Positions 25,888-51,711 are shown, counted from the first letter of the stretch. The stretch is 64,000 nt of DNA from Candidatus Woesearchaeota archaeon (GCA_019322895.1 JAHWHZ010000003.1:114492-178491), one strand, 5' to 3'. The notes: generated by a model from the letters alone, not told the origin. Program-made: numbers and translations.

Positions 25888-25972
25888 TGTATTCCCCCAC
25901 TTAACCATATTAATGAAGAATAAGAGCATGATTCTTTATAAAGTTGATGTTTTTTTAATTACTTTTCAGTAA

Positions 25973-28900
25973 CTAACCTGTCAGTCTTCTGTAGATGCCT
26001 GGCAGTTTAGCAGGCACGTCTTCCATCCTGTTGACATGCGCAAACCTGAACCCTCTTGCAATCTTTTCCATCACTTCTTTCTCAGCATCTCCTGTAAATA
26101 TCACTATTGGATGCAGCCCTGCATTCCTTGCCTCGCGCAAGGCTTCTCTTGTGTCTGCAATCGCGTATTCTCCTTTATATTCAATATCATTAGGCGCGCC
26201 TTCAAGCAAGTATGCAAGTATCTTGTGTTTTTCAGGACGTCTGCTCAATACATGGGTTGCGTATCTTATTCCTGCACCATCCCTGTTCTGCTGTAGTGCC
26301 TTTAATGAGCCGATTCTCCGCTGTGTTTCACGATTATATTTTTCATTGAATCCTTTTATCTGGTAAACATCAACCTGCTCTCTTGTTTTTCCGCTGTAGG
26401 CAATGATTGAGTATGCATCTCCTGTCTGATCTATTGCTTCGCACATGTAAAGGCAGGTCTTCTTGCTGATGTCTATGAATCTTCCTTTTCTTGGATTGTC
26501 AAGGTCGAGGAATTTTCTCAGAGAGCCGCTCACTTCTGTCAATAAAAGTGTTGCAACAGACCGTTGGTTCTTGTATGTTCTTATGAATAATTTTTCGCTC
26601 GGCGTCACTCCTGCAGCTATCTGGCCTTTTGCTTCCACAATCGCATTAAAGTCAGGCTCTCCTGACAATTGTTTTTTCAGGGCTTTTCGCTCTTCTGGCT
26701 TCAGCCTTTCAAATTCCCTGCGTATTCTCTCAAGATGAACATAATCCTCGTCAAGCACGCTTGTGACAAAATCATTTTCAACAACTTCTATTGGTCTTTC
26801 ATACACAAGAACATAATTTTCTTTAAGCTGTCCTGTGTCTGCGTCCCATTCTGGGAATAGTATCGGCTTTCCTTCCTGCTCGTCAAGAAGTATTTCTTCT
26901 TCTTTTGGGGCCAGGCCGCTTTCCACTGTGACTGCCTCTTCAAGGTTTATTTCAGATACTGGTTCTGGCGGCTCAACACGTTTTGCGACTTCATCTGCTT
27001 TCATTATATCGTAAAGCCGGTCAGTAAGATGCAGCGAATCTATCACAGTTGCAGAAGGCATTCTTATGTGCTCGTCGATTTCTGACTTGAGTTTTGCTGC
27101 CAGCTTGCTTTTTCGTTTTGAGCTTCCTGTCATGCATATCTGGTAAAGCGCCTCAAACGAACTTTTTGGCTTATTGAAGTTTGAAGATATGTATTCATCA
27201 AATATCGCCATATCATTTCTCAGTCCAGGATATGTTTCCAATAGTTTTGACTTCACTCTTGCTGTCTCAAGCATTGTGAATATGAATTTTGCAGCTTCGC
27301 TGTTTGGATAAGTGCTCATCAGTCTTGCAAGAGATACTTCATCAATCTCTTCTTTGCTGCCTGATTTTTCCATGCAGTCTTGGATCAATTCTTTCAATGC
27401 AGATTCATCAATCTCATAAGTCCCGAATTCAAGGAATGCTGTCTGGTAGGATGTCAAGACCTTGTATATGCTGAAGTTCTGTTCGTCATCCTCAAATGCA
27501 TGCACTGATATCGGCAGGACTATCTTGCCTTCCTGCAGCGAGGATTTCAGCTCAACAGAATCTGTTTTCTCGACTGCAAGCCTTTTGTTGGACAGTGCCT
27601 CTGCATATACTTTTAATTTTCCTACAACATCATCAAATTTCAGTCCTTGCAGGAATTTATCCACGCTTATGCTGCTCGTGTAGCTTCTCCTGCCGTAGAA
27701 CTTGACTGCAGCATCAACAGAATCCAGCTTTGCCCCTTCTTCAGCCCATGCCTGGGCAGTCTCAACTCCGAAAGAATCTATCATCTTCGGCAGGTTGTCA
27801 AAATAATTATCAATGAGCTGTTCAAGCTTCTCGCGAAACTCCCGCCATCTTGCTTCATATTTTTCCTTTTCTCTCAAAGTGCTGTCTTGCTTCTTCAAAA
27901 TCATTCTTGTTTTTTCCACATAAGGAGCGAACATTTGATTGAGCTCATCCATGAAGAATCTTTGGTTTTCTTTAGGTATCTGCTGGAATTTGCGCAGAAA
28001 ACTGTAAAGAAGCAAATCTGGCTGCTTTATTTTTGCTGCACTCATAATTGTTTCAGGCCGCACCACATTCAGGTAATAGCAGAAAAATCCGCAGAAATCA
28101 AACAGCACGTCATTTTCAACATCATCTCCTGCCTGCGCGCGTGCCCTGAGAAAAACAAGGTCTGCATCCAGGAATTCGTCTGGCATGTAATTAAGCTTTC
28201 CAGGAAGCTTTCTTACAATAAGCTGTCTCAAGACATCGTCTCTCTCTTGATACGGCTTGCGAAGCTCTATTGCAAGGTCTCTTATGTTGCTTGCATGCTC
28301 AATAGTCTCTTCATCTGCCTGCGCATATAATGGCGCGCTTTGCAAGATATACGAGCTGAGCGAAGACTGGCCTGGTTTTTGCGTGTCCATTTTCTTCTCA
28401 AGCGCATTCACCCAGGCCTGGAAATTTTCTTTGGAAAACTCATCTGCCAGAAGAGACAGCTGATTGGAAAGTGTTGTCAGATGCCTTCGCAGTTCCCTAT
28501 CATTGGAAGTCATTGCATTTTGAAGCAAGTGATCTATAAATTCTTTGAGGAATTTGCCTTGTTTTTTTGTTATCTGGCACAGGCTTGCATAATTGTCAAG
28601 AAACTCTGCCAGGTCCTGCCCTCCATTGCGCACCAGGTGCAGTCCATTCTCCAGAAATGCATCTCCTGCAGAAAACACCTCCTGCTTGTCCTGCCTTTGC
28701 AGTCCAAAGATGTTTTCCAGCGCATTTTTGGTATCATGGAAAAGATTCACATAACTGCGTTTTTCTTTTTCTGCGCGTGTTTTGTGTCCAAAAGCGATTA
28801 AAAGATAAGAAAGATATCTCTTGAATTCATCTGCAGATGTTTTTTGGGCTGCAATGCCCGGTATATGATTAAGGTATGCATGTAAGAGCTTGTCAAACCT

Positions 28901-31346: not shown

Positions 31347-31619
31347 CGTGTCTTTCCTCCCAAATATCTCTTGTTTTTAAAGTATAAATAACTTTCTATA
31401 TACTTATAGGTAACAGTGACCATTTATAAAGCTTATGGTTTTTTAACTACTTTTCAGTGTCAAAAACAAAAGATTTAAATACTACTAGTGTTTACCTATT
31501 ATTACCATGAAACGAGTTGATTGTATTCATTGTGGATAAACTGAATTCTTATTTTATTAGTTCCAGCTCTATGATGCGAAGTGATTGTATTCATCATCGC
31601 TAGTTCTAAATTCATTCTT

Positions 31620-31687
31620 GGCGGCAGTGGCGTAATGGTAGCGTATGGGACTGTGGCTCCCATGGCGCGGGTTCGATTCCCACCTAA
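31620..31687 (+). pseudogene. truncated tRNA-His relic (5' 62 nt identical to the functional copy, no 3' acceptor strand)
   Basis: 31620-31681 is identical to 31815-31876. The sequence then diverges (cccacctaac vs cccgcctgcc), so the acceptor stem cannot close. Confidence 0.8.
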
Positions 31688-31802
31688 CTTTGAAAAAGTT
31701 AGGATCAAAATGCGTTCTTTGTTCAGGCTCCAGAAGCAATCTATAGGCTGTTTGCTCTGCAAACAGGGATTCAACTCTTCTCTCACCCTCACAATATCAC
31801 GC
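31683..31802 (+). mobile_element. R-element copy 2 (hairpin cctaactttgaaaaagttagg plus core 31711-31802) between the tRNA-His relic and the intact tRNA-His
   Basis: Aligns with 5333-5450 and with the reverse complement of 57912-58032. Confidence 0.6.
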
Positions 31803-43770: not shown

Positions 43771-44172
43771 ATGGTAATCTTATTTGATCGATTTAATCTG
43801 CCGTCAGATGTTTTTGAAGTGATATTTTCTACTGAGCAGCAGAGAATTGTGGCAAAAGAATTGATTAAATTCATGGCAGACCATAACTGCGAGATTACCA
43901 AGACACAGATGAGCTTCTTTGCAACGCAGCTGCACGACGGCAAATATGAGTGTGTTCTCGACGAGGGGCCGCACAAGGGAAAGAAAGCAAAACTGAGTTA
44001 CAACAAAAGGCAGTTTTATGACAGGATTCTTACGCCGATGAAATCAATGGGCCTGATTGACTACGACCTTTACAAGAAGACATACAAGATTTCCAACAAG
44101 TTCTCTAATGACCTTATGAAGATAGGCCTGATGTGGAAGGCAGAATTAAGGAAGTATGGCATCAATAGTTGA
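43771..44172 (+). CDS. hypothetical protein, possible winged-helix DNA binder
   Basis: 133 aa. Its promoter/leader (cacaacatttatat...tattccc...tagagaaaggtg) is shared with the Rrf2 gene at 58.4 kb. C-terminal YDRILTPMKSMGLIDYD is wHTH-like. Confidence 0.45.
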   Translation: MVILFDRFNLPSDVFEVIFSTEQQRIVAKELIKFMADHNCEITKTQMSFFATQLHDGKYECVLDEGPHKGKKAKLSYNKRQFYDRILTPMKSMGLIDYDLYKKTYKISNKFSNDLMKIGLMWKAELRKYGINS

Positions 44173-44199
44173 TGTTTTTTAAGATTATCCTCTATTTCT

Positions 44200-44475
44200 T
44201 TAAATAGGAAGATAAAGAGGTTCTCTATTGCTGCTGCGCGCTGTTTTTTTAACTGTCTTGTATAACTTCCGGATTTTCTCTCCGCTGAATGTCTTGACTG
44301 CACGCTCTCCTTCAAATACCCTCAACAGATAAAGCCCGCGGCCTGTTTCACTCAAGCCAAGCACGATTTCTCCATCAACCTCCTTATAGAAATTAAAGCG
44401 AAAAATACCCATTCCCCGCTTTTTTTTTGCTGCTGCCATACCAATGCCCTGAAAGAAATGACAGCATATTTTCAA
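44200..44475 (-). CDS. hypothetical protein (91 aa)
   Basis: Track ORF only. Start uncertain. Confidence 0.3.
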   Translation of the reverse strand: MKICCHFFQGIGMAAAKKKRGMGIFRFNFYKEVDGEIVLGLSETGRGLYLLRVFEGERAVKTFSGEKIRKLYKTVKKTARSSNREPLYLPI

Positions 44476-44598
44476 GAGTTAAATTGCTCATATCCATTAT
44501 ATCATCCCCCACAAAACAAGAAAAAATGTTAAGAATATTTAAAGGTTTTCTAAAAGGATAAAATGGTAAATTTGGTCGCTGCGCAGAATTATCATCTC

Positions 44599-44640
44599 TT
44601 AGTTACTTTAAAGTAGTTACGAAACACAACATTTATAAAT
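44599..44640 (+). promoter_or_regulatory. palindrome (ttagttactttaaagtagttac) plus TATA box (tttataaat)
   Basis: The same palindrome-then-TATA layout occurs at 45793, 47202 and 48486. Lies 22 nt upstream of the 44662 start. Confidence 0.5.
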
Positions 44641-44661
44641 AAGCAAAACATCATATGCACT

Positions 44662-45417
44662 ATGATATTAGACAATCTTGAAGCCCGGTTAAAAAAGAAC
44701 GGCACTCTTGAAGCATTTAATAAAGATACTGCTGAAATAGATGAAGATGTTAGAAATCTACTAAAATTGCTCTTTGGTGTTGCTTCTGAATTAGATAACG
44801 CAAAACAAGAATATGTGATTCATGGAGGATACGCAGTATTGGTTCATCTGGCAGATTGTTTAGGAACTAAAGCCATACCTAAATGGCGAGGGTCTCACGA
44901 CCTAGATTTAGTTGCTAATGAAAGAATAGTGACTATGCTTAAGAGCTATCTTAATATCCTTAGCGATAGGGAAAGCCAAAGAGTCAAAGGAAAAAGAACC
45001 TTAAAAGTCCTACTTGAAGAATCTGAAAAACCGTATAAATTAGACTTGAGAATGATTGAACAGTTCGCAGACGATTCTGCAGAGACATACCGTGGCGAAG
45101 TAGATACTTTAACTGTGTATGGCATCTCTGTTAGAGTTCCTAAACTAATGCGATTATTAAAAGATAAACTGAGTGTTTCAAGAAATCTTGAAAGAGATAA
45201 CGTAGACATCTTAAATTTGATTGGTGTGCTTTATCTTAGAAAAACTCCTGCAGAAAGAGTAATTGGCGGACTTGATTTAAAGGAACGAAAAAGATTGTAT
45301 TCCTTGATTGCTGCCGACTCTGCCAAGGAAAAATTTATAAAGGAGAATGTCTTGATAGAGGTTAGTGACAAGTATCTGCTGCGTTTTAAAAAACAACTTA
45401 AAAAACGAATAAAATGA
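44662..45417 (+). CDS. AbiEii/AbiGii-like nucleotidyltransferase (toxin-type NTase fold)
   Basis: VIHGGYAVLVHL...RGSHDLDLV (the GG...DxD NTase core) and the C-terminal KDKLSVSRNLERDNVDILNL pattern typical of AbiEii (DUF1814). Confidence 0.55.
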   Translation: MILDNLEARLKKNGTLEAFNKDTAEIDEDVRNLLKLLFGVASELDNAKQEYVIHGGYAVLVHLADCLGTKAIPKWRGSHDLDLVANERIVTMLKSYLNILSDRESQRVKGKRTLKVLLEESEKPYKLDLRMIEQFADDSAETYRGEVDTLTVYGISVRVPKLMRLLKDKLSVSRNLERDNVDILNLIGVLYLRKTPAERVIGGLDLKERKRLYSLIAADSAKEKFIKENVLIEVSDKYLLRFKKQLKKRIK

Positions 45418-45785
45418 AAATACAAACATATCAAGGAGAAAATATTAGAGCCATCTTAGATAAAGCCCCTTATGATTGGAGAGCTACAGGGACATATGGT
45501 GTAGAAAGATCATTAAAAAATGGCAAGATATCGAACATATTACTAATCTATGTCAATTCCAGAGATTTAAAAGAGTGGGATAAATATCTAACAGCTAATT
45601 CTGTCAAATCAACAAAAGTTTTGCCCGATCTAAAACTTGTCGGTGTTGATACCCTTCCAGAATCTTCAAAAAAAGATAGAAACGTAGTGGATATAAGCCA
45701 CCTTATTGCTGATTTAGAGAAAGTCGCTCCACGGTATCGTGAAACACATCCTGAAATCGTAGAGCATTTAAGCGATGTTGCTTAA
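45414..45785 (+). CDS. hypothetical protein, translationally coupled to the AbiEii-like gene
   Basis: 4-nt ATGA overlap with the upstream gene. No motif recognised. Confidence 0.5.
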   Translation: MKIQTYQGENIRAILDKAPYDWRATGTYGVERSLKNGKISNILLIYVNSRDLKEWDKYLTANSVKSTKVLPDLKLVGVDTLPESSKKDRNVVDISHLIADLEKVAPRYRETHPEIVEHLSDVA

Positions 45786-45795
45786 TTCTTAGTCA
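45782..45795 (-). repeat. 14-nt stump of a map 3'-end relic
   Basis: ttaattcttagtca is identical to 49768-49781. It encodes TKN* in map sense and is fused directly to the palindrome tcactaaatagtga. Confidence 0.5.
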
Positions 45796-45830
45796 CTAAA
45801 TAGTGATTACAAACCAAAAGCTTTATAAAG
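45793..45830 (+). promoter_or_regulatory. palindrome (tcactaaatagtga) plus TATA box (ctttataaag)
   Basis: Same layout as 47202 and 48486. Confidence 0.5.
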
Positions 45831-45875
45831 GGCGTTTGCCTTTAGTAAATCAATTACCTTTAGAGGGGTGGAAAA

Positions 45876-46556
45876 ATGAGTGAAGAAAAATTAGAAAATA
45901 TGATTCAAAATGGACGAGCAGTAATTGATGCTTCTCCTGATGGTTTTATTTGGTGTCCTTTAGATGATGGATTTATGTGTGACTTAGACAGAAGGGCAGA
46001 GTTAATAGAAAAATATAATTCTGGAGATACTGACGAGCTAAATAAAGAGCTGCTGCCTGGAGCAGTGTATGCAACCTTTGAAGAAATAGAAGGCGCAAGC
46101 AGGTCAAGCGGTGGAGTTGTCAAGATTGATCCTGTAACAGGCAAAATCGTAAGTCTTCATACCCAAGATGAAGGAACTCGAACATACTTGACAGCGGCTT
46201 TTGGAGGCCCGCATATTAACTTTTTTGCATTTAATGATAAAAAGCCAACAGAAAAACCAACAGTCACAATAAAGATTGAATACAACGCTAAAACCGGCAA
46301 ATGGAACTTTGAAGGGCCGCTTCTAAAAACACAAAAAAGCGACTTGATTAAGGGGTTCTTAAATATACATCCCTTTGCAAAAGATTCTGGGAAGACAAAT
46401 CAGCAGGACAAATATACTATCGAACTGAACTGGTACCACAAGACAGATCATGCTGAAATTGTCAGCGACAATACAGGAAATCCCCACTATAGAAATATCC
46501 TTTTAGAAGGCGCGTGGGCAGAATTAAGAAGCGCGGAATTAAAAGGTAAACTTTAG
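45876..46556 (+). CDS. hypothetical protein (226 aa)
   Basis: The Shine-Dalgarno GAGGGGTGG lies upstream. No motif recognised. Confidence 0.55.
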   Translation: MSEEKLENMIQNGRAVIDASPDGFIWCPLDDGFMCDLDRRAELIEKYNSGDTDELNKELLPGAVYATFEEIEGASRSSGGVVKIDPVTGKIVSLHTQDEGTRTYLTAAFGGPHINFFAFNDKKPTEKPTVTIKIEYNAKTGKWNFEGPLLKTQKSDLIKGFLNIHPFAKDSGKTNQQDKYTIELNWYHKTDHAEIVSDNTGNPHYRNILLEGAWAELRSAELKGKL

Positions 46557-46569
46557 GAGGAAAACCAAA

Positions 46570-47094
46570 ATGACTGAAGAAAAATTTATCCCAAAAAAAG
46601 ACTTTAAAGAAGATCTCACGCAAACTTACTTACTAGGTAAAGAGAACTTTCAAAATCCTGAAAGTCCTATTGTAAAACATGAAACCTTATGCAATAAATT
46701 GTTTGCAATGGAACTTGCACCTTCTATTGACATGTCAAACGTAAGAGCAGAAGACAGGCCTTATGTTCACGAGGTTGTGCAATACCTTAGACAGAATGGT
46801 TTAAGACCAGAACTAAAAGGCAGTGCGCTTATGGGAAACATGTATGGTGATATTGACATTCTTGCAACAGGAAGTCTTGAAGATCTAACAAACGTGACAC
46901 GGGCGCTTAATGGAGCACAAGATATTGCAAATCCATTCTACAGCACAGCTGCAGACGGTGAAGAGTATACTGTTGCGCATGAAGGCGAAAATGTTGCTTA
47001 CATGCACGAGAATCTTGCACAGCTGTTCAATATACTTGTCGGCGACACAAAAATTCATCTCGGCCTTAAAGGATCAGGCGTGATAGGAAGTTAA
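46570..47094 (+). CDS. Pol-beta-superfamily nucleotidyltransferase-fold protein
   Basis: KGSALMGNMYGDIDILATGS matches the GS-x(n)-DxD minimal NTase motif. AGGAGG Shine-Dalgarno upstream. Confidence 0.5.
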   Translation: MTEEKFIPKKDFKEDLTQTYLLGKENFQNPESPIVKHETLCNKLFAMELAPSIDMSNVRAEDRPYVHEVVQYLRQNGLRPELKGSALMGNMYGDIDILATGSLEDLTNVTRALNGAQDIANPFYSTAADGEEYTVAHEGENVAYMHENLAQLFNILVGDTKIHLGLKGSGVIGS

Positions 47095-47103
47095 TTTTTT
47101 TAT

Positions 47104-47199
47104 TTATTCTATTTTTGTCAGAATCTCAACTTTATCGTCTACAAGCAATGTATGTTCTGCCTGTGATACAATTCCTTTGTTTTTCTCGACCAAAGGAAA
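47104..47199 (-). repeat. relic A of the map 3' terminus
   Basis: In map sense it reads FPLVEKNKGIVSQAEHTLLVDDKVEILTKIE*. The native map end is FPPLPEKNKGIVSQAEHTLLIEDKVEILTKNTTFK*. Confidence 0.85.
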
Positions 47200-47201
47200 A
47201 A

Positions 47202-47243
47202 TTAATCACTATTAAGTGATTAGAAAACCGAAGATTTAAATAC
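47202..47243 (+). promoter_or_regulatory. perfect palindrome (ttaatcact atta agtgattaa-type) plus TATA box (atttaaatac)
   Basis: TAATCACT/AGTGATTA 8-bp arms. TATA about 25-35 nt upstream of the 47268 start. Confidence 0.55.
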
Positions 47244-47267
47244 TTTTGAATATTAACATGTAGCACC

Positions 47268-48038
47268 ATGAGCAAAGATGAATCTGCGGAATTTCAAACA
47301 AAGGAATTTCAAGAGGATGAATTTAGACAGGTAATTGAAAGGTCTAAAGAATTAATAGCCAGAGGGTATTTTACTGGAATAAATTTTCTGCAATCAGAGG
47401 AGCCTCTGCCGACAAATTCTATAATCGTACACTTTCTTCATGATAGCAAACAGCATTTGGATGAAATCATATCCACTGTGCCTGCTGCGCGTTTGGTAGT
47501 CCCTAGATTCACTTGCTATATGTTAGATCCTAAATATTTTCAAAAGCCCAATTTTGCTGAAGAATACAAAGATGCGGTTTTTTTCGATTCTAATTTCAAG
47601 ATAATTACAGTTGAGGATGCGATTGCAAACCCTTTGGGTACGACAGTACTCAATAGAGAGTTGGATTTAATAGTCCCTCTTCACGACAGTAAAGATTTAT
47701 ACGATACTGTGCATGCTTTGCAAGAGGCAGACGAAGAAGGCCCGTATCAATGGATAGATCCAGTTCTTATTGTAAAAACAAAAACGCCCGTTACTGCTCT
47801 AGAAGGTTTTGTTGACAAACAGTACGTTAGTATCGCAAAAGAAAGAGAAGAGTTTTATTCAATCTTAACCGACGAGGAAAGAACAGATGCCCTATCAAAA
47901 TATTTAGATAAATTATGTGCTGCCACAAAAATAGGGACATTACAAAGAAGCGATATTGTTTTCAATACAAGTCAGGTAAACGAAAAGTTTGCAGACTTTC
48001 TAGTTAATATTCAGAACCAGCTTCAAATCTTTGAATAG
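47268..48038 (+). CDS. hypothetical protein (256 aa)
   Basis: Track ORF with no motif recognised. Confidence 0.55.
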   Translation: MSKDESAEFQTKEFQEDEFRQVIERSKELIARGYFTGINFLQSEEPLPTNSIIVHFLHDSKQHLDEIISTVPAARLVVPRFTCYMLDPKYFQKPNFAEEYKDAVFFDSNFKIITVEDAIANPLGTTVLNRELDLIVPLHDSKDLYDTVHALQEADEEGPYQWIDPVLIVKTKTPVTALEGFVDKQYVSIAKEREEFYSILTDEERTDALSKYLDKLCAATKIGTLQRSDIVFNTSQVNEKFADFLVNIQNQLQIFE

Positions 48039-48321
48039 TTTCTCTCAACTTTTGTTTAGAATAAACATCAGTAAGTTTTTGAGGTCCTCCGCCACGCACT
48101 CCTTTTTCAAACGCCTCTTGTAATGGATTAGAAATACCGTTTTTATGTATGCGGTACTTATATTCTATTTCTCCCCAGCCATATCGCCATTCACTAATAC
48201 ATCCGTCATTGGGCAATTCTGCAAGAACTTCAATTAATTTTGGTAGATTCTCCTGACTAATACAGTCTAAACCTTCTATTTCTGGATCTTCTGATGCTTT
48301 TCTTAGTGTTTCTACTAACAT
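48004..48321 (-). CDS. hypothetical protein (105 aa), convergent and overlapping 47268..48038 by 35 nt
   Basis: Track ORF with no motif recognised. Confidence 0.4.
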   Translation of the reverse strand: MLVETLRKASEDPEIEGLDCISQENLPKLIEVLAELPNDGCISEWRYGWGEIEYKYRIHKNGISNPLQEAFEKGVRGGGPQKLTDVYSKQKLRETIQRFEAGSEY

Positions 48322-48393
48322 TTTCCTATGTGTTATATGCCTCCAGAAGTATATAAATCTTTTGAAATAAATCTGGCAACATGCGTAAAATAA

Positions 48394-48473
48394 CTAATTC
48401 TTAGTCAGAATCTCAACTTTATCATCTACAAGCAAAGTATGCTCTGCCTGAGAGACAATTCCTTTGTTTTTTT
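48394..48473 (-). repeat. relic B of the map 3' terminus
   Basis: In map sense it reads QKNKGIVSQAEHTLLVDDKVEILTKN*. Confidence 0.85.
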
Positions 48474-48485
48474 GTTAAACAACAA

Positions 48486-48537
48486 TTAATTACTATTTAG
48501 TAGTTATAAACCAGAAGATTTAAATATCCTGCTAATT
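48486..48537 (+). promoter_or_regulatory. near-palindrome (ttaattactatttagtagttataa) plus TATA box (atttaaatat)
   Basis: Same layout and position relative to the relic as at 47202. Confidence 0.5.
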
Positions 48538-48549
48538 TAGAAATACTCA

Positions 48550-49407
48550 ATGATACTTATCCATGATTTGACAGGGATTTGTGAAGATAAGAGAAAAGAA
48601 GTGATTGCCTGCTTAGACGAATTATTGACATATAGAGATTCAGATGGTTTGTTAGTTCCGGTGATTTCTGGATACAATTGGTACGCAAAATTAACAAAAT
48701 CTGACCGCGTAATTACTTTCTCTAATATTCATGAAACAGAATCCTACAAAGAAGATATGTTAAGAGATTTAGAAGAATTAGGATATGACCATAAAGATAT
48801 ACTAAATCAAATAAGGGAAAAAGCAGGTGCGTTCATACATGACCTTGAATTCAGACTAAGAGATGATGACGGCAATCTGCTCCCTGGATTGAGAATAAAA
48901 GACACTCGAACAGGAAAATACATTGACTTGGAGAACTACCAAGATGCCTTGATAAATTACCAAGAATTTACTGATGCAGAAGGTTGTTTGATTGATGAAG
49001 ACCAAGGGTGGGAGTTAGATATGCCATTTAAAGGGGAGCGAGAATTAATGAGTCTTGTGAATCTCTTTCTAAAAAAATCCGGAAAGCATATTTATGATGT
49101 AAGAGGCAACATAATCAAAGAAACAGACGAAGAACAAGACGCGCGAGCTCCTTGGTCTGATGCATACAAAGTTCCTGTTTTGCTCTTAGGCGAAACCGCT
49201 TTGCGTTATGCAGATAAATTGCCTCAGTTTGTTCCAGTAACTAAATTTGCACTAAAAGAAAACAACAACGAAATAAGTTTCATAATCCATAACAACATAA
49301 AATATTTAAAAAGCTTGAATCAATATACTCAATTACTTAGATTTGGATTTGCTGAAGAAGAATGTCTGGGGAATAAACCGTTCATAAGGTATGTTGACGA
49401 AATATAA
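48550..49407 (+). CDS. hypothetical protein (285 aa)
   Basis: Track ORF with no motif recognised. Confidence 0.55.
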   Translation: MILIHDLTGICEDKRKEVIACLDELLTYRDSDGLLVPVISGYNWYAKLTKSDRVITFSNIHETESYKEDMLRDLEELGYDHKDILNQIREKAGAFIHDLEFRLRDDDGNLLPGLRIKDTRTGKYIDLENYQDALINYQEFTDAEGCLIDEDQGWELDMPFKGERELMSLVNLFLKKSGKHIYDVRGNIIKETDEEQDARAPWSDAYKVPVLLLGETALRYADKLPQFVPVTKFALKENNNEISFIIHNNIKYLKSLNQYTQLLRFGFAEEECLGNKPFIRYVDEI

Positions 49408-49454
49408 ACAAATAAGTCGATACCTTTAAATAGTTAAATAACTATGTAATAACC

Positions 49455-49736
49455 ATGCCAACAGAAACAATCGTAAAAGATCCTAAGCGAATGACCCTTT
49501 CTGAAATAAAGCAGACACTAACAAATATTATCGCTTATGAGCAAGAAACAAGAGAGTCTTGGGTAGTCCTTAAAATGCAAAACAGGCAATTAGGCGCGAT
49601 TCACTATGTAACATCACAAAAAGAAGCAGAAAAAGAGATTAATGCACCAGTATCCAGCAATCCAAGAACGTGTGAATGGGGCTTAAAATTTTATTCTCGT
49701 TCTGATTTAGAGCAATTAAAAGAAAAATATAGTTAA
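49455..49736 (+). CDS. hypothetical protein (93 aa)
   Basis: The TATA-like cctttaaatag and the palindrome atagttaaataactat lie just upstream. Confidence 0.5.
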   Translation: MPTETIVKDPKRMTLSEIKQTLTNIIAYEQETRESWVVLKMQNRQLGAIHYVTSQKEAEKEINAPVSSNPRTCEWGLKFYSRSDLEQLKEKYS

Positions 49737-49767
49737 ATAAGAAAAACAAAATTATATTCTTGGATTT

Positions 49768-49823
49768 TTAATTCTTAGTCAAAATCTCAACTTTATCATC
49801 TATACGCAATATGCACTCTGCCT
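49768..49823 (-). repeat. relic C of the map 3' terminus (more diverged, truncated)
   Basis: In map sense it reads AECILRIDDKVEILTKN*. Similarity ends exactly at the stop codon of the HEPN gene. Confidence 0.7.
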
Positions 49824-50246
49824 TTACTCCTCGACTAATGACATTAAGAACTGGATAATCTTCATTATTTCTTCCTTGTTTTTCTCATAAAAAGAGATAT
49901 CAACTGCTTCACCGTAATAATTTAGCCTGTTCCTTAAGTAACTCATTTCTGAAATCAAATTAGCTTCAAACTCGCGGTCTGAATGCTTTCGGTAAAAATA
50001 AGAGATGAGGCATTGATGATTCTTTGATTTCAAACCGTGTTTTAGCAATAATGCCACAAGCAATTCCTTGATAATCTCATAATAACCCTCAATGATAAAA
50101 GAAACATTGTCTTTATTAACTTGCTGGCTGTCAATAAATTTTCTTCTTTTACTGACTGTATCGAGTATGGAATTGATCTTTTCCTTGTCAGGAGTCACGG
50201 TTCTGATAAATTGCCGCTTGCATTCGCCCCAATCCATCAAATTCAT
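49824..50246 (-). CDS. HEPN-domain protein (partner of the MNT nucleotidyltransferase)
   Basis: 140 aa, all-helical. The MSYLRNRLNYYGE region resembles the RNxxxY/H HEPN motif. 4-nt overlap with the upstream NTase gene. Confidence 0.6.
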   Translation of the reverse strand: MNLMDWGECKRQFIRTVTPDKEKINSILDTVSKRRKFIDSQQVNKDNVSFIIEGYYEIIKELLVALLLKHGLKSKNHQCLISYFYRKHSDREFEANLISEMSYLRNRLNYYGEAVDISFYEKNKEEIMKIIQFLMSLVEE

Positions 50247-50749
50247 CTTATTTTAAAAAACCCCTCAATCTTGATCCCGTTAACCACGTTATTAAATAAG
50301 TTGTCTGGCAAATCATTGATATCCCGCTCAGCAAAAAGCTGGATTTTGTGGCCTAGTATCTTCTCAAATTGGGCCAGGTCCAAATCCTGCTTCTTTAAGG
50401 CTTCAACAAACAAGTCAATATCACTTTCTTTAGCTGATTCGCCTTTCCTGAAACTGCCAAAAAGAATTATGCACGCAGGCCTTAACTGCTCAGCAAGATA
50501 TGCTATCAAGCCGCTTTCAAATAACTCCTTGATATAAAAAAAGGTCTTTTCTGTCTTAAACAAAGCAGTATTGGCTGCCTTGTTTTCTTTAGTCACCCTC
50601 CTGCTCTTTTTAAGCTCTCTTAGATACTTGTGAACAGTTGATTTTGGAATCCTTGTCTTTTTGGCTAGTTCCCGGACTGTAAACCGCTTCTCAGGATACT
50701 CGTAAAAAATCCTCAGAATTTTGTCCAGATTATTGTACTTTAGTCCCAT
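50243..50749 (-). CDS. wHTH-fused minimal nucleotidyltransferase (MNT)
   Basis: N-terminal wHTH (FTVRELAKKTRIPKSTVHKYLRELKK), then the canonical IILFGSFRKGESAKESDIDLFV NTase motif. Confidence 0.8.
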   Translation of the reverse strand: MGLKYNNLDKILRIFYEYPEKRFTVRELAKKTRIPKSTVHKYLRELKKSRRVTKENKAANTALFKTEKTFFYIKELFESGLIAYLAEQLRPACIILFGSFRKGESAKESDIDLFVEALKKQDLDLAQFEKILGHKIQLFAERDINDLPDNLFNNVVNGIKIEGFFKIR

Positions 50750-50781: not shown

Positions 50782-51711
50782 CTATTTAAATGTTGTGTTC
50801 TTGGTCAGAATCTCAACTTTATCCTCTATCAGCAAAGTATGCTCTGCCTGTGAGACAATTCCTTTGTTTTTCTCTGGCAGTGGAGGAAACTGCTTTATTA
50901 TGTCGTTTTTCAGAAGTTCTCTTAAAGCAAAATTAGTCTTTCCTAAGCCGAATTTTCTTGAAAGCCATCTTGTTGTAAATGGCAAAGTTTTGTAGTTCTC
51001 TGCAACAAATTTCAGGATTTCCCGTGCAAAAGGGCTGCGGACAGGCTTTGGATTTGTGAGCATAAAGATGTTTGCTCTTTCTTTTTCATATATCATTCCT
51101 GCCCCGTTTGTTGCAAACGGCTCTATTGCGATTATCATACCTTTTTTTAATTCTGTCTTGTCTCCTGTGTCAAAATTAGGTATTGTTGGTTTTGTGTGGA
51201 TGTCATAATAATCCAGCCCATGGCCAGATAAGTTTTTTACAGGCGAGAATCCATAGCTTGATATTGTCTCTTGTATTGTCTTGCCTATCTCTCCCAAGGA
51301 AGTTCCTATCTGGACTATCTTTATTGCATTGTTCAATGCCTCTCTTGATGCTTTCACTAATTCACTCCATTTTCCGCTTAAGTCAACTGTCAGTGCATTG
51401 TCGCCAATAGCGCCACTGACATGAACACCAACATCCAAGCAGGCCACCTGGTTCTCAAAGATGGTCTTGTCATCTGGGTCTGCGCAGTAATGTGCAGCGA
51501 TATTATCGCAGCTTATCTGCGCTGGAAAAGCAATCTGCCCTCCTAAGTCAATTATTTTTTTCTCTATCATGTCAGAGACTTCAAGCAAAGAAGCTCCTTT
51601 CTTGATTAATCCGCCGCCATATTCAAGGGCTTGCGCTGCTATTTTTCCTGCTTTTCTCCAGTGCTCTAAATCCTCTGGAGTTAGGCCGTCTAAGACACTT
51701 TTCTCTTCCAT
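50782..51711 (-). CDS. map: type 2 (archaeal/eukaryotic-like) methionine aminopeptidase
   Basis: IAAHYCADPDD, LDVGVHVSGAIGD, NLSGHGL, IIAIEPFAT and SQAEHTLLI supply the five metal-ligand regions in the expected order. Confidence 0.92.
   Translation of the reverse strand: MEEKSVLDGLTPEDLEHWRKAGKIAAQALEYGGGLIKKGASLLEVSDMIEKKIIDLGGQIAFPAQISCDNIAAHYCADPDDKTIFENQVACLDVGVHVSGAIGDNALTVDLSGKWSELVKASREALNNAIKIVQIGTSLGEIGKTIQETISSYGFSPVKNLSGHGLDYYDIHTKPTIPNFDTGDKTELKKGMIIAIEPFATNGAGMIYEKERANIFMLTNPKPVRSPFAREILKFVAENYKTLPFTTRWLSRKFGLGKTNFALRELLKNDIIKQFPPLPEKNKGIVSQAEHTLLIEDKVEILTKNTTFK

What the first reader, a model, noticed from the sequence alone, without database searches (positions are those of the whole stretch)
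43771..50749. Orphan-rich island between ftsZ and map with three separate nucleotidyltransferase-fold modules
About 7 kb carries an AbiEii-like NTase with a translationally coupled partner (44662..45785). It also carries a minimal NTase (GSALMGNMYGDIDIL) preceded by a 226-aa orphan (45876..47094), and a canonical wHTH-MNT/HEPN pair (49824..50749). These are interleaved with four further orphans. AbiE and MNT-HEPN are established toxin-antitoxin or abortive-infection modules in bacteria and archaea, and clustering of such modules is typical of defence islands. The orphans sharing cassettes with them (47268..48038, 48004..48321, 48550..49407, 49455..49736, 45876..46556) are candidate uncharacterised defence or addiction components. 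They would be delivered by the map-terminus cassette mechanism.
Basis: partly seen in the sequence, partly recalled or inferred. Interest (0 to 1): 0.65.

Follow-up and report, generated by a model that had tools for sequence, protein, structure and literature searches.

The report
Gene-cassette array at map's 3' end
Between ftsZ and the methionine aminopeptidase gene of an uncultured archaeon lies a strain-variable array of five small two-gene cassettes, three of them carrying nucleotidyltransferase-fold proteins that look like toxin-antitoxin modules, each inserted into the end of the map gene and separated by leftover copies of that end.

Summary
The ORFs are all at the stated coordinates. 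The region is a real variable island, but its left edge is 44173, not 43771: the 133-aa gene is conserved core.

From 44.5 to 50.78 kb there are five compact two-gene cassettes. They are separated by direct-repeat copies of the last 60-105 nt of map. Four cassettes start with the same operator-plus-TATA promoter.

Close relatives carry 0, 1, 2 or at least 5 cassettes at this same site, in different orders. One relative shows a textbook single-crossover insertion next to an empty-site genome.

All three NTase calls hold, with unequal strength:
- wHTH-MNT passes Pfam.
- The "AbiEii-like" protein has no profile hit. Its model (pLDDT 89) matches JHP933, the structural neighbour of the DUF1814/MenT toxins, and it keeps the S-x-D-x-D, K, D set.
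- The "minimal NTase" is supported only by motif and weak fold hits.

The HEPN is sub-threshold and lacks Rx4-6H, so it is not canonical. Two "orphans" belong to lineage-restricted families of about 50 clusters each with no known domain.

A toxin-antitoxin or defence role is plausible but untested. No recombinase was found in the window.

The parts
43771..44172 (+). o133: conserved core gene that forms the left border of the insertion site. It is not part of the island.
   Evidence: 85-99% aa identity beside ftsZ in L011, L017, L018, L025, L026, L030, L034 and L036. In empty-site genome L030 its stop overlaps the map stop.
44200..44496 (-). o91m: frameshifted homologue of the 122-aa gene that lies next to map in L018, L025 and L011. 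The frameshift is in an A9 run at 44420-44428.
   Evidence: The N-terminus (GHWYGSSKKK) and the rest (GMGIFRFNFYKEV...LYLLRVF) match o122 in two different frames. The sequence is identical in independent assemblies.
44594..44639 (+). D2 copy 1: operator palindrome TTAGTTACTTTAAAGTAGTTA plus TATA box, 23 nt before the AbiEii-like ATG.
44662..45417 (+). Cassette 1, gene 1: DUF1814/MenT/AbiEii-like nucleotidyltransferase (251 aa).
   Evidence: AF2 pLDDT 89.2. Foldseek top hits are JHP933 4OK0/4O8S, E 1e-6, TM 0.51-0.56. Residues G55, G56, A58, R76, G77, D80, D82, K169 and D182 are invariant in the 8-member family. No Pfam hit.
45414..45785 (+). Cassette 1, gene 2: 123-aa partner, start overlapping the NTase stop (ATGA).
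   Evidence: Kept beside the NTase in L011 (75% identity) and in a different context in L013 (70% identity). No family or PDB match.
45784..45829 (+). D2 copy 2, fused directly to the end of cassette 1. The map fragment expected here is missing.
   Evidence: An alternative contig junction at 45794 in run X3 marks this as a cassette boundary.
45876..46556 (+). Cassette 2, gene 1: o226, unknown function.
   Evidence: No family hit. Absent next to the minNT homologues in L017 and L034. A divergent allele occurs in L003/X3 from position 45938 on.
46570..47094 (+). Cassette 2, gene 2: minimal NTase-like protein (174 aa; G84-S85...D94-I-D96).
   Evidence: 9-cluster family. S85, D94 and D96 are invariant in all 8 aligned members, and G84 is present in 7 of 8. 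AF2 core (residues 58-170) has pLDDT about 70-89. Top Foldseek hits are almost all pol-beta-superfamily NTases, but at E 6e-3 or weaker. Strain L002 carries D96G plus G115stop.
47111..47196 (-). D1 copy: displaced fragment of the map 3' end (codons about 277-304).
   Evidence: 89-91.5% identical to 50798-50871. tblastn E 4e-10.
47197..47242 (+). D2 copy 3 (operator plus TATA), 26 nt before the o256 ATG.
47268..48321 (.). Cassette 3: o256 (+, 47268-48038) and o105 (-, 48004-48321). The genes are convergent and their 3' ends overlap by 35 nt.
   Evidence: The same pair occurs in L017 at 92% and 91% identity. The o256 family has 50 representatives at 25-60% identity and no known domain.
48388..48474 (-). 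D1 copy: displaced fragment of the map 3' end (codons about 280-308).
   Evidence: 93% identical over 74 nt.
48481..48526 (+). D2 copy 4 (operator plus TATA), 24 nt before the o285 ATG.
48550..49736 (+). Cassette 4: o285 (48550-49407) plus o93 (49455-49736).
   Evidence: The pair is kept in L036 (80% and 78% identity, there next to map) and in L037 (60% and 30%, among PIN and HicAB genes). The o285 family has 54 clusters and no Pfam or PDB match.
49771..49863 (-). D1 copy, short form. Homology to map starts at GGCAGAG immediately after the HEPN stop codon.
   Evidence: The same junction occurs in L017 and L036.
49824..50749 (-). Cassette 5: HEPN-like protein (49824-50246) plus wHTH-MNT (50243-50749), with a 4-nt overlap.
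   Evidence: MNT: Polbeta 1.5e-8, NTP_transf_2 2.1e-7, wHTH families, PADLOC PDC-M05A 5e-13. HEPN: PF05168 E=0.049, no Rx4-6H. The pair is 90-91% identical in L017 and L036.
50782..51711 (-). map (methionine aminopeptidase, M24). Its last 60-105 nt are the attachment site; the master D1 copy is 50798-50871.
   Evidence: Peptidase_M24 5e-32. Its C-terminal tail (309 aa, ending ...TKNTTFK) comes from the adjacent MNT/HEPN cassette. The same tail is found on the fragment beside MNT in L036.

Best explanation
SHOWN. The stretch 44.5-50.78 kb is an array of five small mobile cassettes of 1.0-1.4 kb, each with two genes. They accumulated at one chromosomal hotspot: the 3' end of the essential map gene, where it converges on o133. 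Each cassette behaves as a circle that carries a copy of the last 60-105 nt of map. A single crossover with the chromosomal copy inserts the cassette, rebuilds an intact map gene and pushes the previous 3' end inward as a fragment. Cassettes are therefore separated by map-3' direct repeats. Four cassettes bring the same promoter module (a 21-nt palindromic operator plus TATA), which this genome also uses at a chromosomal operon.

INFERRED. The recombination is done in trans, either by a site-specific recombinase encoded elsewhere or by homologous recombination. No recombinase lies in the window or in any cassette.

INFERRED FROM FOLD, MOTIFS AND GENE PAIRING. The cargo is toxin-antitoxin-like addiction or defence modules:
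- Cassette 1 holds a MenT/AbiEii-like NTase that would block translation by modifying tRNA 3' ends. Its coupled 123-aa partner would hold it in check.
- Cassette 2 holds a minimal NTase.
- Cassette 5 holds a wHTH-MNT with a non-canonical HEPN partner.
- Cassettes 3 and 4 are gene pairs from lineage-restricted families of unknown biochemistry.
For: REPEATS. map-3' copies are 89-93% identical over 71-74 nt at 47111, 48398 and 49772.

OCCUPANCY SERIES in relatives with FtsZ 89-95% identical:
- L030 and L026 are empty, with overlapping map and o133 stops.
- L018 and L025 have one gene.
- L011 adds the AbiEii-like pair. The displaced map fragment there is still joined to the native downstream sequence seen in L018.
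- L036 has two cassettes in inverted order relative to the window.
- L017 has at least five, in another order.
- L034 has a SpoIIE+117-aa cassette bounded by a fragment with the same limits, map codons 277-304.

CARGO HISTORY DIFFERS FROM CORE HISTORY.
- Against L017, cargo is 90-92% identical while map, M50 and g238 are 77-85%.
- Against L036, o285 and o93 are 78-80% while map, M50 and o133 are 95-99%.

POPULATION VARIANTS.
- Alternative contig junctions fall exactly at D1 and D2 edges.
- L003 has a divergent o226 allele beside identical flanks.

CARGO FUNCTION.
- Fold match of the 251-aa protein to JHP933. JHP933 is the best structural match of the DUF1814 toxins MenT3 and MenT4 (PMC7450476).
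- Invariant D80, D82, K169 and D182, with Ser/Thr at position 78.
- MNT profile hits.
- minNT motif and fold hits.
- All five cassettes are gene pairs.
- In a 99.945%-identical strain, 3 of 4 SNPs fall in minNT, giving D96G in the DxD motif and a stop codon. My binomial estimate for this clustering is p about 0.001.
Against: - No integrase or recombinase is present in the 64-kb window or in any cassette.
- No circular form or excision joint was seen. Only assembled contigs were available.
- The cassette 1/2 boundary has no map fragment, and the fragment left of cassette 1 is a short degenerate relic.
- The extent of map homology differs between cassette types: about 57-62, 105 and 207 nt. Repeat copies are homogenised within each genome. 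Both points fit homologous recombination as well as a site-specific enzyme.
- For function: no Pfam or PADLOC support for 9 of the 10 island proteins.
- AbiEii-like homologues at 28-32% identity are solitary genes beside GatDE/AspRS or other ordinary genes.
- The HEPN lacks Rx4-6H.
- The minNT partner is not conserved.
Confidence: 0.68

Rival explanations
1. The cassettes are not mobile mini-elements. They are the decayed cargo remnants of successive larger integrative elements (proviruses or plasmids with their own integrase) that targeted the map 3' end and then lost everything else by deletion.
For: Tandem target-gene fragments and missing integrases are what decayed integrated elements leave behind, as described for tycheposon islands (10.1101/2020.12.28.424599). 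Homology lengths differ between cassettes. L034 has a 5.4-kb stretch without internal fragments.
Against: The same compact units recur with the same boundaries in different genomes, at different array positions and with different neighbours. These are MNT/HEPN, o256/o105 and o285/o93. Independent decay would not reproduce identical 1.0-1.4-kb units. Four cassettes share one promoter module placed directly against the repeat.
Confidence: 0.15
2. An ancestral long array is simply being lost differentially by deletion between the map-3' direct repeats. There is no ongoing insertion or horizontal transfer, and the genes are ordinary lineage-specific chromosomal genes (for example regulatory NTases).
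For: Direct repeats of 70-100 nt promote deletions. o285 and o256 belong to families with about 50 clusters spread through the lineage. Distant AbiEii-like homologues are solitary in housekeeping contexts.
Against: Deletion cannot invert cassette order (window versus L036) or place minNT on different sides of o256 (window versus L017). Cargo identity departs from flanking-gene identity in both directions. The AbiEii-like pair and the o285 pair also occur away from map (L013, L037).
Confidence: 0.1
3. It is an archaeal integron or CALIN-type array: cassettes bounded by attC hairpins and moved by an IntI integrase.
For: Small cassettes stockpiled in an array, a TA-like content typical of chromosomal integrons, and integrons reported in archaeal MAGs (PMC9668308).
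Against: The repeats are copies of a coding sequence, not attC sites. As single strands they fold no better than shuffles, with z from -0.2 to -0.8. No integrase is present in the window. Four of the five cassettes carry their own promoter module.
Confidence: 0.03

Closest known systems
Tandem arrays of integrative elements at the 3' end of a target gene (tRNA-targeting genomic islands; tycheposon islands of Prochlorococcus, 10.1101/2020.12.28.424599)
   Same: Each element is flanked by a partial copy of the target gene. The target gene is rebuilt on insertion. New arrivals push older ones inward. Arrays vary between strains and empty sites exist in relatives.
   Different: The target is a protein-coding essential gene (map), not a tRNA. 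The units are only 1.0-1.4 kb with two genes and no integrase, replication or excision gene. Four share one host-type promoter module.
Integron cassette arrays (chromosomal integrons; archaeal integrons, PMC9668308)
   Same: A stockpile of small, reorderable cassettes at one site, rich in paired TA-like genes and genes of unknown function.
   Different: There is no IntI nearby and no attC hairpin. The recombination sequence is a copy of the target gene's end. Four of the five cassettes carry their own promoter.
DUF1814 NTase toxins: AbiEii (AbiE, PMC3985639) and MenT1-4 (PMC7450476, PMC11375011)
   Same: A two-domain NTase fold closest to JHP933. GG-x-A, S/T-x-D-x-D, K and D residues are conserved. 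The gene sits in a translationally coupled bicistron.
   Different: There is no PF08843 match. The partner is downstream, has no detectable wHTH and is not an AbiEi/MenA homologue. More distant family members have no partner. The family has only 8 clusters in 5.8 billion proteins.
MNT-HEPN modules (HepT/MntA type VII TA; PADLOC candidate PDC-M05)
   Same: An MNT with GS...DxD, overlapping a small helical HEPN-like partner. The MNT hits PDC-M05A at 5e-13.
   Different: The MNT has an N-terminal wHTH. The HEPN is below the Pfam threshold and has no Rx4-6H, so an RNase toxin role is doubtful. It may instead be a substrate- or NTP-binding subunit.

Membership tests
AbiE (AbiEi/AbiEii) / MenAT DUF1814 TA systems | Sequence-profile membership in DUF1814/AbiEii (PF08843) | tested here: not met
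   No Pfam hit for the window protein at E<=0.1, nor for any of 8 family members at E<=10. No NCBIfam, PHROG or PADLOC hit. The profile against PDB sequences found nothing.
AbiE (AbiEi/AbiEii) / MenAT DUF1814 TA systems | Two-domain NTase fold of the JHP933/MenT type | tested here: met
AbiE (AbiEi/AbiEii) / MenAT DUF1814 TA systems | Catalytic residues (phospho-acceptor Ser, Asp, Lys, Asp as in MenT3 S78/D80/K189/D211) | tested here: met
   D80, D82, K169 and D182 are invariant. Position 78 is Ser in 7 members and Thr in 1. G55, G56 and A58 are also invariant. The correspondence to MenT residues is by motif order, not by superposition.
AbiE (AbiEi/AbiEii) / MenAT DUF1814 TA systems | Upstream wHTH antitoxin (AbiEi/MenA) in the same operon | tested here: not met
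   The partner is downstream, 123 aa, with no HTH or any other profile hit. Homologues at 28-32% identity have no partner.
AbiE (AbiEi/AbiEii) / MenAT DUF1814 TA systems | Toxicity neutralised by the partner; phage exclusion | not testable with these tools
   Needs expression and infection assays.
MNT-HEPN TA module | MNT with the hG[GS]x9-13Dh[DE]h motif and a profile match | tested here: met
   Polbeta 1.5e-8 and NTP_transf_2 2.1e-7, both above their cut-offs. The motif is FGSFRKGESAKESDIDLFV.
MNT-HEPN TA module | HEPN domain profile match | tested here: inconclusive
   PF05168 E=0.049, 14.2 bits against a cut-off of 22, covering profile positions 31-110 of 117. No PDB or plasmid hit.
MNT-HEPN TA module | Rx4-6H RNase motif in HEPN | tested here: not met
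   No R.{4,6}H in the window, L017 or L036 orthologues. The site reads LRNRLNYYG.
Minimal nucleotidyltransferase (pol beta superfamily) | G[SG] ... DxD motif and the alpha-beta-beta-alpha core fold | tested here: inconclusive
   S85, D94 and D96 are invariant in all 8 aligned members, and G84 is present in 7 of 8. The model has pLDDT 65.6 overall and about 70-89 in the core. Top Foldseek hits are almost all pol-beta-superfamily NTases, but the best E is 6e-3. No Pfam hit.
Integron | attC sites that fold as hairpins; IntI integrase next to the array | tested here: not met
   D1 fragments fold no better than shuffles, z -0.2 to -0.8. No recombinase domain was found among the window ORFs of 100 aa or more that were scanned; these cover most of the 64 kb.
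Target-gene 3'-end integrative elements in tandem (tycheposon-like islands) | Direct repeats of the target gene's 3' end flank each unit; the target is rebuilt; empty sites exist in relatives | tested here: met
Target-gene 3'-end integrative elements in tandem (tycheposon-like islands) | Element-encoded integrase | tested here: not met
   No cassette in the window, L011, L017, L034 or L036 holds a gene larger than 285 aa or one with a recombinase domain.

The most novel reading that the evidence does not exclude
These archaea (MAGs labelled Woesearchaeota or Methanosarcinales) have a previously undescribed gene-capture platform. Integrase-less two-gene cassettes of 1.0-1.4 kb, each with a standard operator/TATA promoter, are shuffled in and out of the last roughly 100 nt of the essential map gene by a trans-acting recombinase. 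The platform is functionally an integron analogue built on a coding-gene attachment site. The unannotated pairs (o256/o105, o285/o93, o226/minNT, AbiEii-like/123-aa) would be new toxin-antitoxin or defence families.
Probability: 0.3. Interest if true: 0.8.

Novelty: new variant of a known kind. Interest (0 to 1): 0.64.

Why it matters
Gene flow in small-genome, uncultured archaea is poorly understood, and classic mobile elements are scarce in them. This site offers a natural series of empty, one-, two- and multi-cassette states among near-identical strains. That gives a directly testable model of how such genomes take up and reshuffle accessory genes without cassette-borne integrases.

The cargo gives a short list of compact two-gene modules for toxin/antitoxin or defence assays. 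It includes a very divergent MenT/AbiEii-like NTase and two families of about 50 clusters each with no known fold.

Tried and rejected
- Pfam, NCBIfam, PHROGs and PADLOC on all island proteins found only the MNT, plus a weak HEPN.
- PDB sequence searches with single proteins and with family profiles (AbiEii-like, o285, o256, partner, o226, HEPN) gave nothing significant.
- tblastn of the HEPN against plasmids found no match.
- The attC-like hairpin idea for the map fragments was rejected.
- The idea that the D2 palindrome is the recombination site was rejected. The same operator+TATA module sits at two chromosomal promoters, 25955 and 31444.
- No tRNA or known ncRNA lies at the site as a hidden target.
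- A scan of viral contigs for the att core and for o285 relatives found none. The o256 alignment was too variable to scan.
- A metagenome scan for the att core returned 9 short loci, useful only for the empty-site states.
- Reads: only Logan contigs were available. They showed no excision joints, only alternative junctions at repeat edges. No RNA runs were found.
- A literature search for map-targeted cassettes in archaea found nothing relevant.
- pI and charge of the gene pairs were uninformative.

Full report
CONTEXT

The window is chromosomal DNA of an uncultured archaeon. It carries GyrB, ribosomal protein S3Ae, a RIO kinase, HisRS with tRNA-His, FtsZ, methionine aminopeptidase (map), an M50 protease and many genes without known domains. 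Near-identical sequence (99.4-100%) occurs in sediment and seawater metagenomes from several studies. The closest genome records are MAGs labelled either 'uncultured Methanosarcinales archaeon' or 'Candidatus Woesearchaeota archaeon'.

OBSERVATION

GC is 0.335-0.39 across 44-50 kb, against about 0.40-0.43 around it.

ANATOMY

Two repeat families organise the stretch.

D1 is a copy of the last part of map.
- The master copy is 50798-50871.
- Displaced copies lie at 47111-47196, 48388-48474 and 49771-49863 (a short form), at 89-93% identity.

D2 is a 46-nt module found at 44594, 45784, 47197 and 48481.
- It consists of a palindrome, TTARTYACT-N4-AGTRRTTA, then an A-rich stretch, then a TATA box.
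- It ends 23-47 nt before the first ATG of the following gene.
- The palindrome gives 11 matches in the window against 0.23 expected by chance.
- Two of the sites lie outside the island, at 25955 and 31444, at promoters of a MoxR-type operon. They have the same palindrome/TATA layout. D2 is therefore a host-type regulated promoter, not a recombination site.

The resulting units are:
- C1: D2, AbiEii-like NTase, 123-aa partner.
- C2: D2, o226, minimal NTase.
- C3: D2, o256, with o105 convergent on the other strand.
- C4: D2, o285, o93.
- C5: HEPN and MNT, co-directional with map.

All five units are gene pairs. The C1/C2 junction lacks a D1 copy. Left of C1 only a degenerate relic of D1 remains, followed by a frameshifted copy of a 122-aa gene.

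COMPARATIVE EVIDENCE THAT THESE ARE INSERTIONS

Relatives with FtsZ 89-95% identical show a graded series of states at the same site:
- L030 and L026: map and o133 converge with overlapping stop codons and nothing between them.
- L018 and L025: only the 122-aa gene.
- L011: the 122-aa gene plus the AbiEii-like pair. The displaced map fragment is still joined to the downstream sequence that follows map in L018, while the intact map gene now ends in cassette-derived sequence. This is the signature of a single-crossover (Campbell-type) insertion.
- L036: a very close strain (map 95%, M50 97%, o133 99%). It has only MNT/HEPN and o285/o93, in the opposite order to the window.
- L017: MNT/HEPN, a 206-aa gene with a TPR-fused minNT homologue, o105/o256 and several further small genes, in yet another order.
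- L034: a more distant genome (map 75%). It has a SpoIIE-phosphatase+117-aa unit bounded by a map fragment with the same limits, map codons 277-304. The interval also holds a minNT homologue, TPK and CYTH genes.

Cargo identity is decoupled from core identity.
- Against L017, cargo is 90-92% identical while map, M50 and g238 are 77-85%.
- Against L036, o285 and o93 are 78-80% while map, M50 and o133 are 95-99%.

The AbiEii-like pair and the o285/o93 pair also occur away from map. In L013 the AbiEii-like pair lies in a different context. In L037 the o285/o93 pair lies among PIN and HicAB modules.

Within the species there is further variation.
- Contigs of run X3 break exactly at D1 and D2 edges.
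- L003 is identical to the window up to 45937 and then carries a divergent o226 allele.

D1 copies are homogenised within each genome. The extent of map homology differs by cassette type: about 105 nt for D2-type cassettes, 57-62 nt for MNT/HEPN, and 207 nt for one L017 unit. This leaves open whether a site-specific recombinase or homologous recombination does the work. No recombinase is present in the window or in any cassette.

THE THREE NTASE MODULES

1. wHTH-MNT. It passes Pfam thresholds (Polbeta 1.5e-8, NTP_transf_2 2.1e-7) and has several wHTH hits. It also matches the PADLOC candidate families PDC-M05A (5e-13) and PDC-S09. Its HEPN partner is sub-threshold (PF05168 E=0.049). None of the three orthologues has an Rx4-6H motif; the site reads LRNRLNYYG. 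'Canonical' is therefore too strong, and an RNase-toxin role is doubtful.

2. The 251-aa protein.
- It belongs to a family of only 8 clusters among 5.8 billion proteins.
- It has no profile match in Pfam, NCBIfam, PHROGs, PADLOC or PDB sequences.
- The AlphaFold model from the 8-sequence alignment is confident (pLDDT 89.2, pTM 0.88).
- Its best PDB matches are JHP933 (4OK0, 4O8S; E about 1e-6; TM 0.50-0.56), followed by other NTases.
- JHP933 is reported as the best structural match of the DUF1814 toxins MenT3 and MenT4 (PMC7450476).
- The family keeps G55, G56, A58, R76, G77, D80, D82, K169 and D182 invariant, with Ser or Thr at position 78. This parallels MenT3 S78, D80, K189 and D211.
- The 123-aa partner travels with it in L011 and L013.
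- Homologues at 28-32% identity are solitary genes beside GatDE/AspRS or other ordinary genes.
- It therefore works like a MenT/AbiEii-type NTase, but it is not a demonstrable member of AbiE.

3. The 174-aa protein.
- It belongs to a 9-cluster family. S85, D94 and D96 are invariant, and G84 is present in 7 of the 8 aligned members.
- Its model is moderate: pLDDT 65.6 overall and about 70-89 for residues 58-170.
- The top Foldseek hits are almost all pol-beta-superfamily NTases or the related RelA/SpoT fold, but at weak E-values of 6e-3 or worse.
- Its neighbour is not conserved: o226 here, an unrelated 206-aa protein in L017, and none in L034.
- Strain L002 is 99.945% identical over 7267 nt. 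Three of its four differences fall in this gene: one silent change, D96G in the DxD motif and G115stop. This is a natural loss-of-function pattern. It fits a costly or toxic activity, though simple pseudogenisation is not excluded.

THE 'ORPHANS'

- o285 has 54 full-length relatives at 43-80% identity, one of them named Ca. Woesearchaeota.
- o256 has 50 representatives at 25-60% identity.
- Neither family matches Pfam or PDB by profile.
- o226, o105, o93 and the 123-aa partner have no matches at all.
- Their biochemistry remains unknown.

COMPARISON WITH KNOWN SYSTEMS

The architecture is closest to tandem integrative elements at the 3' end of a target gene. Prochlorococcus tycheposon islands are an example: partial tRNA copies separate the elements, and new arrivals push older ones inward (10.1101/2020.12.28.424599). 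In spirit it also resembles integron arrays, including those reported in archaeal MAGs (PMC9668308).

It differs from both in several respects:
- The target is an essential protein-coding gene.
- The units are minimal, two-gene and without an integrase.
- Most carry one host-type promoter.
- There is no attC-like structure.

I found no description of such an array in the literature search.

VERDICT

- The island interpretation and the link to the map terminus are well supported.
- The three NTase folds are supported with decreasing strength: MNT, then the DUF1814-like protein, then the minimal NTase.
- A TA or defence function is a reasonable but untested inference.
- The recombination enzyme is unknown.

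Noticed in passing
window 25955-25975 and 31444-31464: The cassette operator palindrome, with the same A-rich spacer and TATA box, also sits at two promoters of a chromosomal operon: a 175-aa gene, a MoxR-type AAA_5/CbbQ_C ATPase, and 1303-aa and 623-aa proteins with no known domains. This suggests one transcription factor co-regulates the cassettes and that operon.
   Followed up: partly
window 44200-44496, A9 run at 44420-44428: The small ORF left of cassette 1 is a frameshifted homologue of the 122-aa gene that follows map in L018, L025 and L011. The shift is in a run of nine A. It is reproduced in independent assemblies, so it is either a pseudogene or slippage-prone.
   Followed up: yes
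L002 5860-6204 (= window 46836, 46856, 46912): In a strain 99.945% identical to the window, 3 of 4 SNPs fall in the minimal NTase gene: one silent change, D96G in the DxD motif, and G115stop.
   Followed up: yes
L003 (= window 45938-46283) and run X3: This strain is identical to the window across ftsZ to cassette 1, then carries a clearly divergent o226 allele (about 8% differences and a 6-nt deletion). That is a cassette-level mosaic within the species.
   Followed up: partly
window 50782-50800; L036 1289-1391; L017 10909-10933: The C-terminal tail of map depends on which cassette lies next to it. It is 309 aa, ending ...TKNTTFK, beside MNT/HEPN here, and 302-305 aa elsewhere. Insertions therefore rewrite the last codons of an essential gene.
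   Followed up: partly
L037 7756-7850 and 9884-9978: In a more distant genome the o285/o93-like pair, with an 88-aa gene and a HicA gene, is bracketed by 95-nt AT-rich direct repeats (82% identical). It lies inside a PIN/HicAB-rich stretch, possibly a second kind of repeat-bounded cassette.
   Followed up: no
L017 15665-15772: A second, partial copy of the 3' end of the o133 homologue (aa 96-131, 75% identical) lies inside the array. At least one insertion therefore duplicated the other side of the convergent map/o133 junction.
   Followed up: no
window 45873-45892 and 46567-46586: The two genes of cassette 2 begin with nearly the same 20 nt, AAAATGAsTGAAGAAAAATT (MSEEKL and MTEEKF).
   Followed up: no
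L017, L018, L019 and L020 record titles: Close relatives of this genome are labelled 'Methanosarcinales' in some MAG records and 'Candidatus Woesearchaeota' in others. At least one label is wrong.
   Followed up: no
window 31621-31691: Rfam calls a second tRNA (44 bits) about 125 nt upstream of tRNA-His, next to the HisRS gene. ARAGORN does not report it.
   Followed up: no
L011 171-2353: In this relative an rve-type DDE transposase, a cold-shock-domain gene and a 269-aa NTP_transf_2 protein lie on the far side of ftsZ. This is another variable insertion next to the same core block.
   Followed up: no
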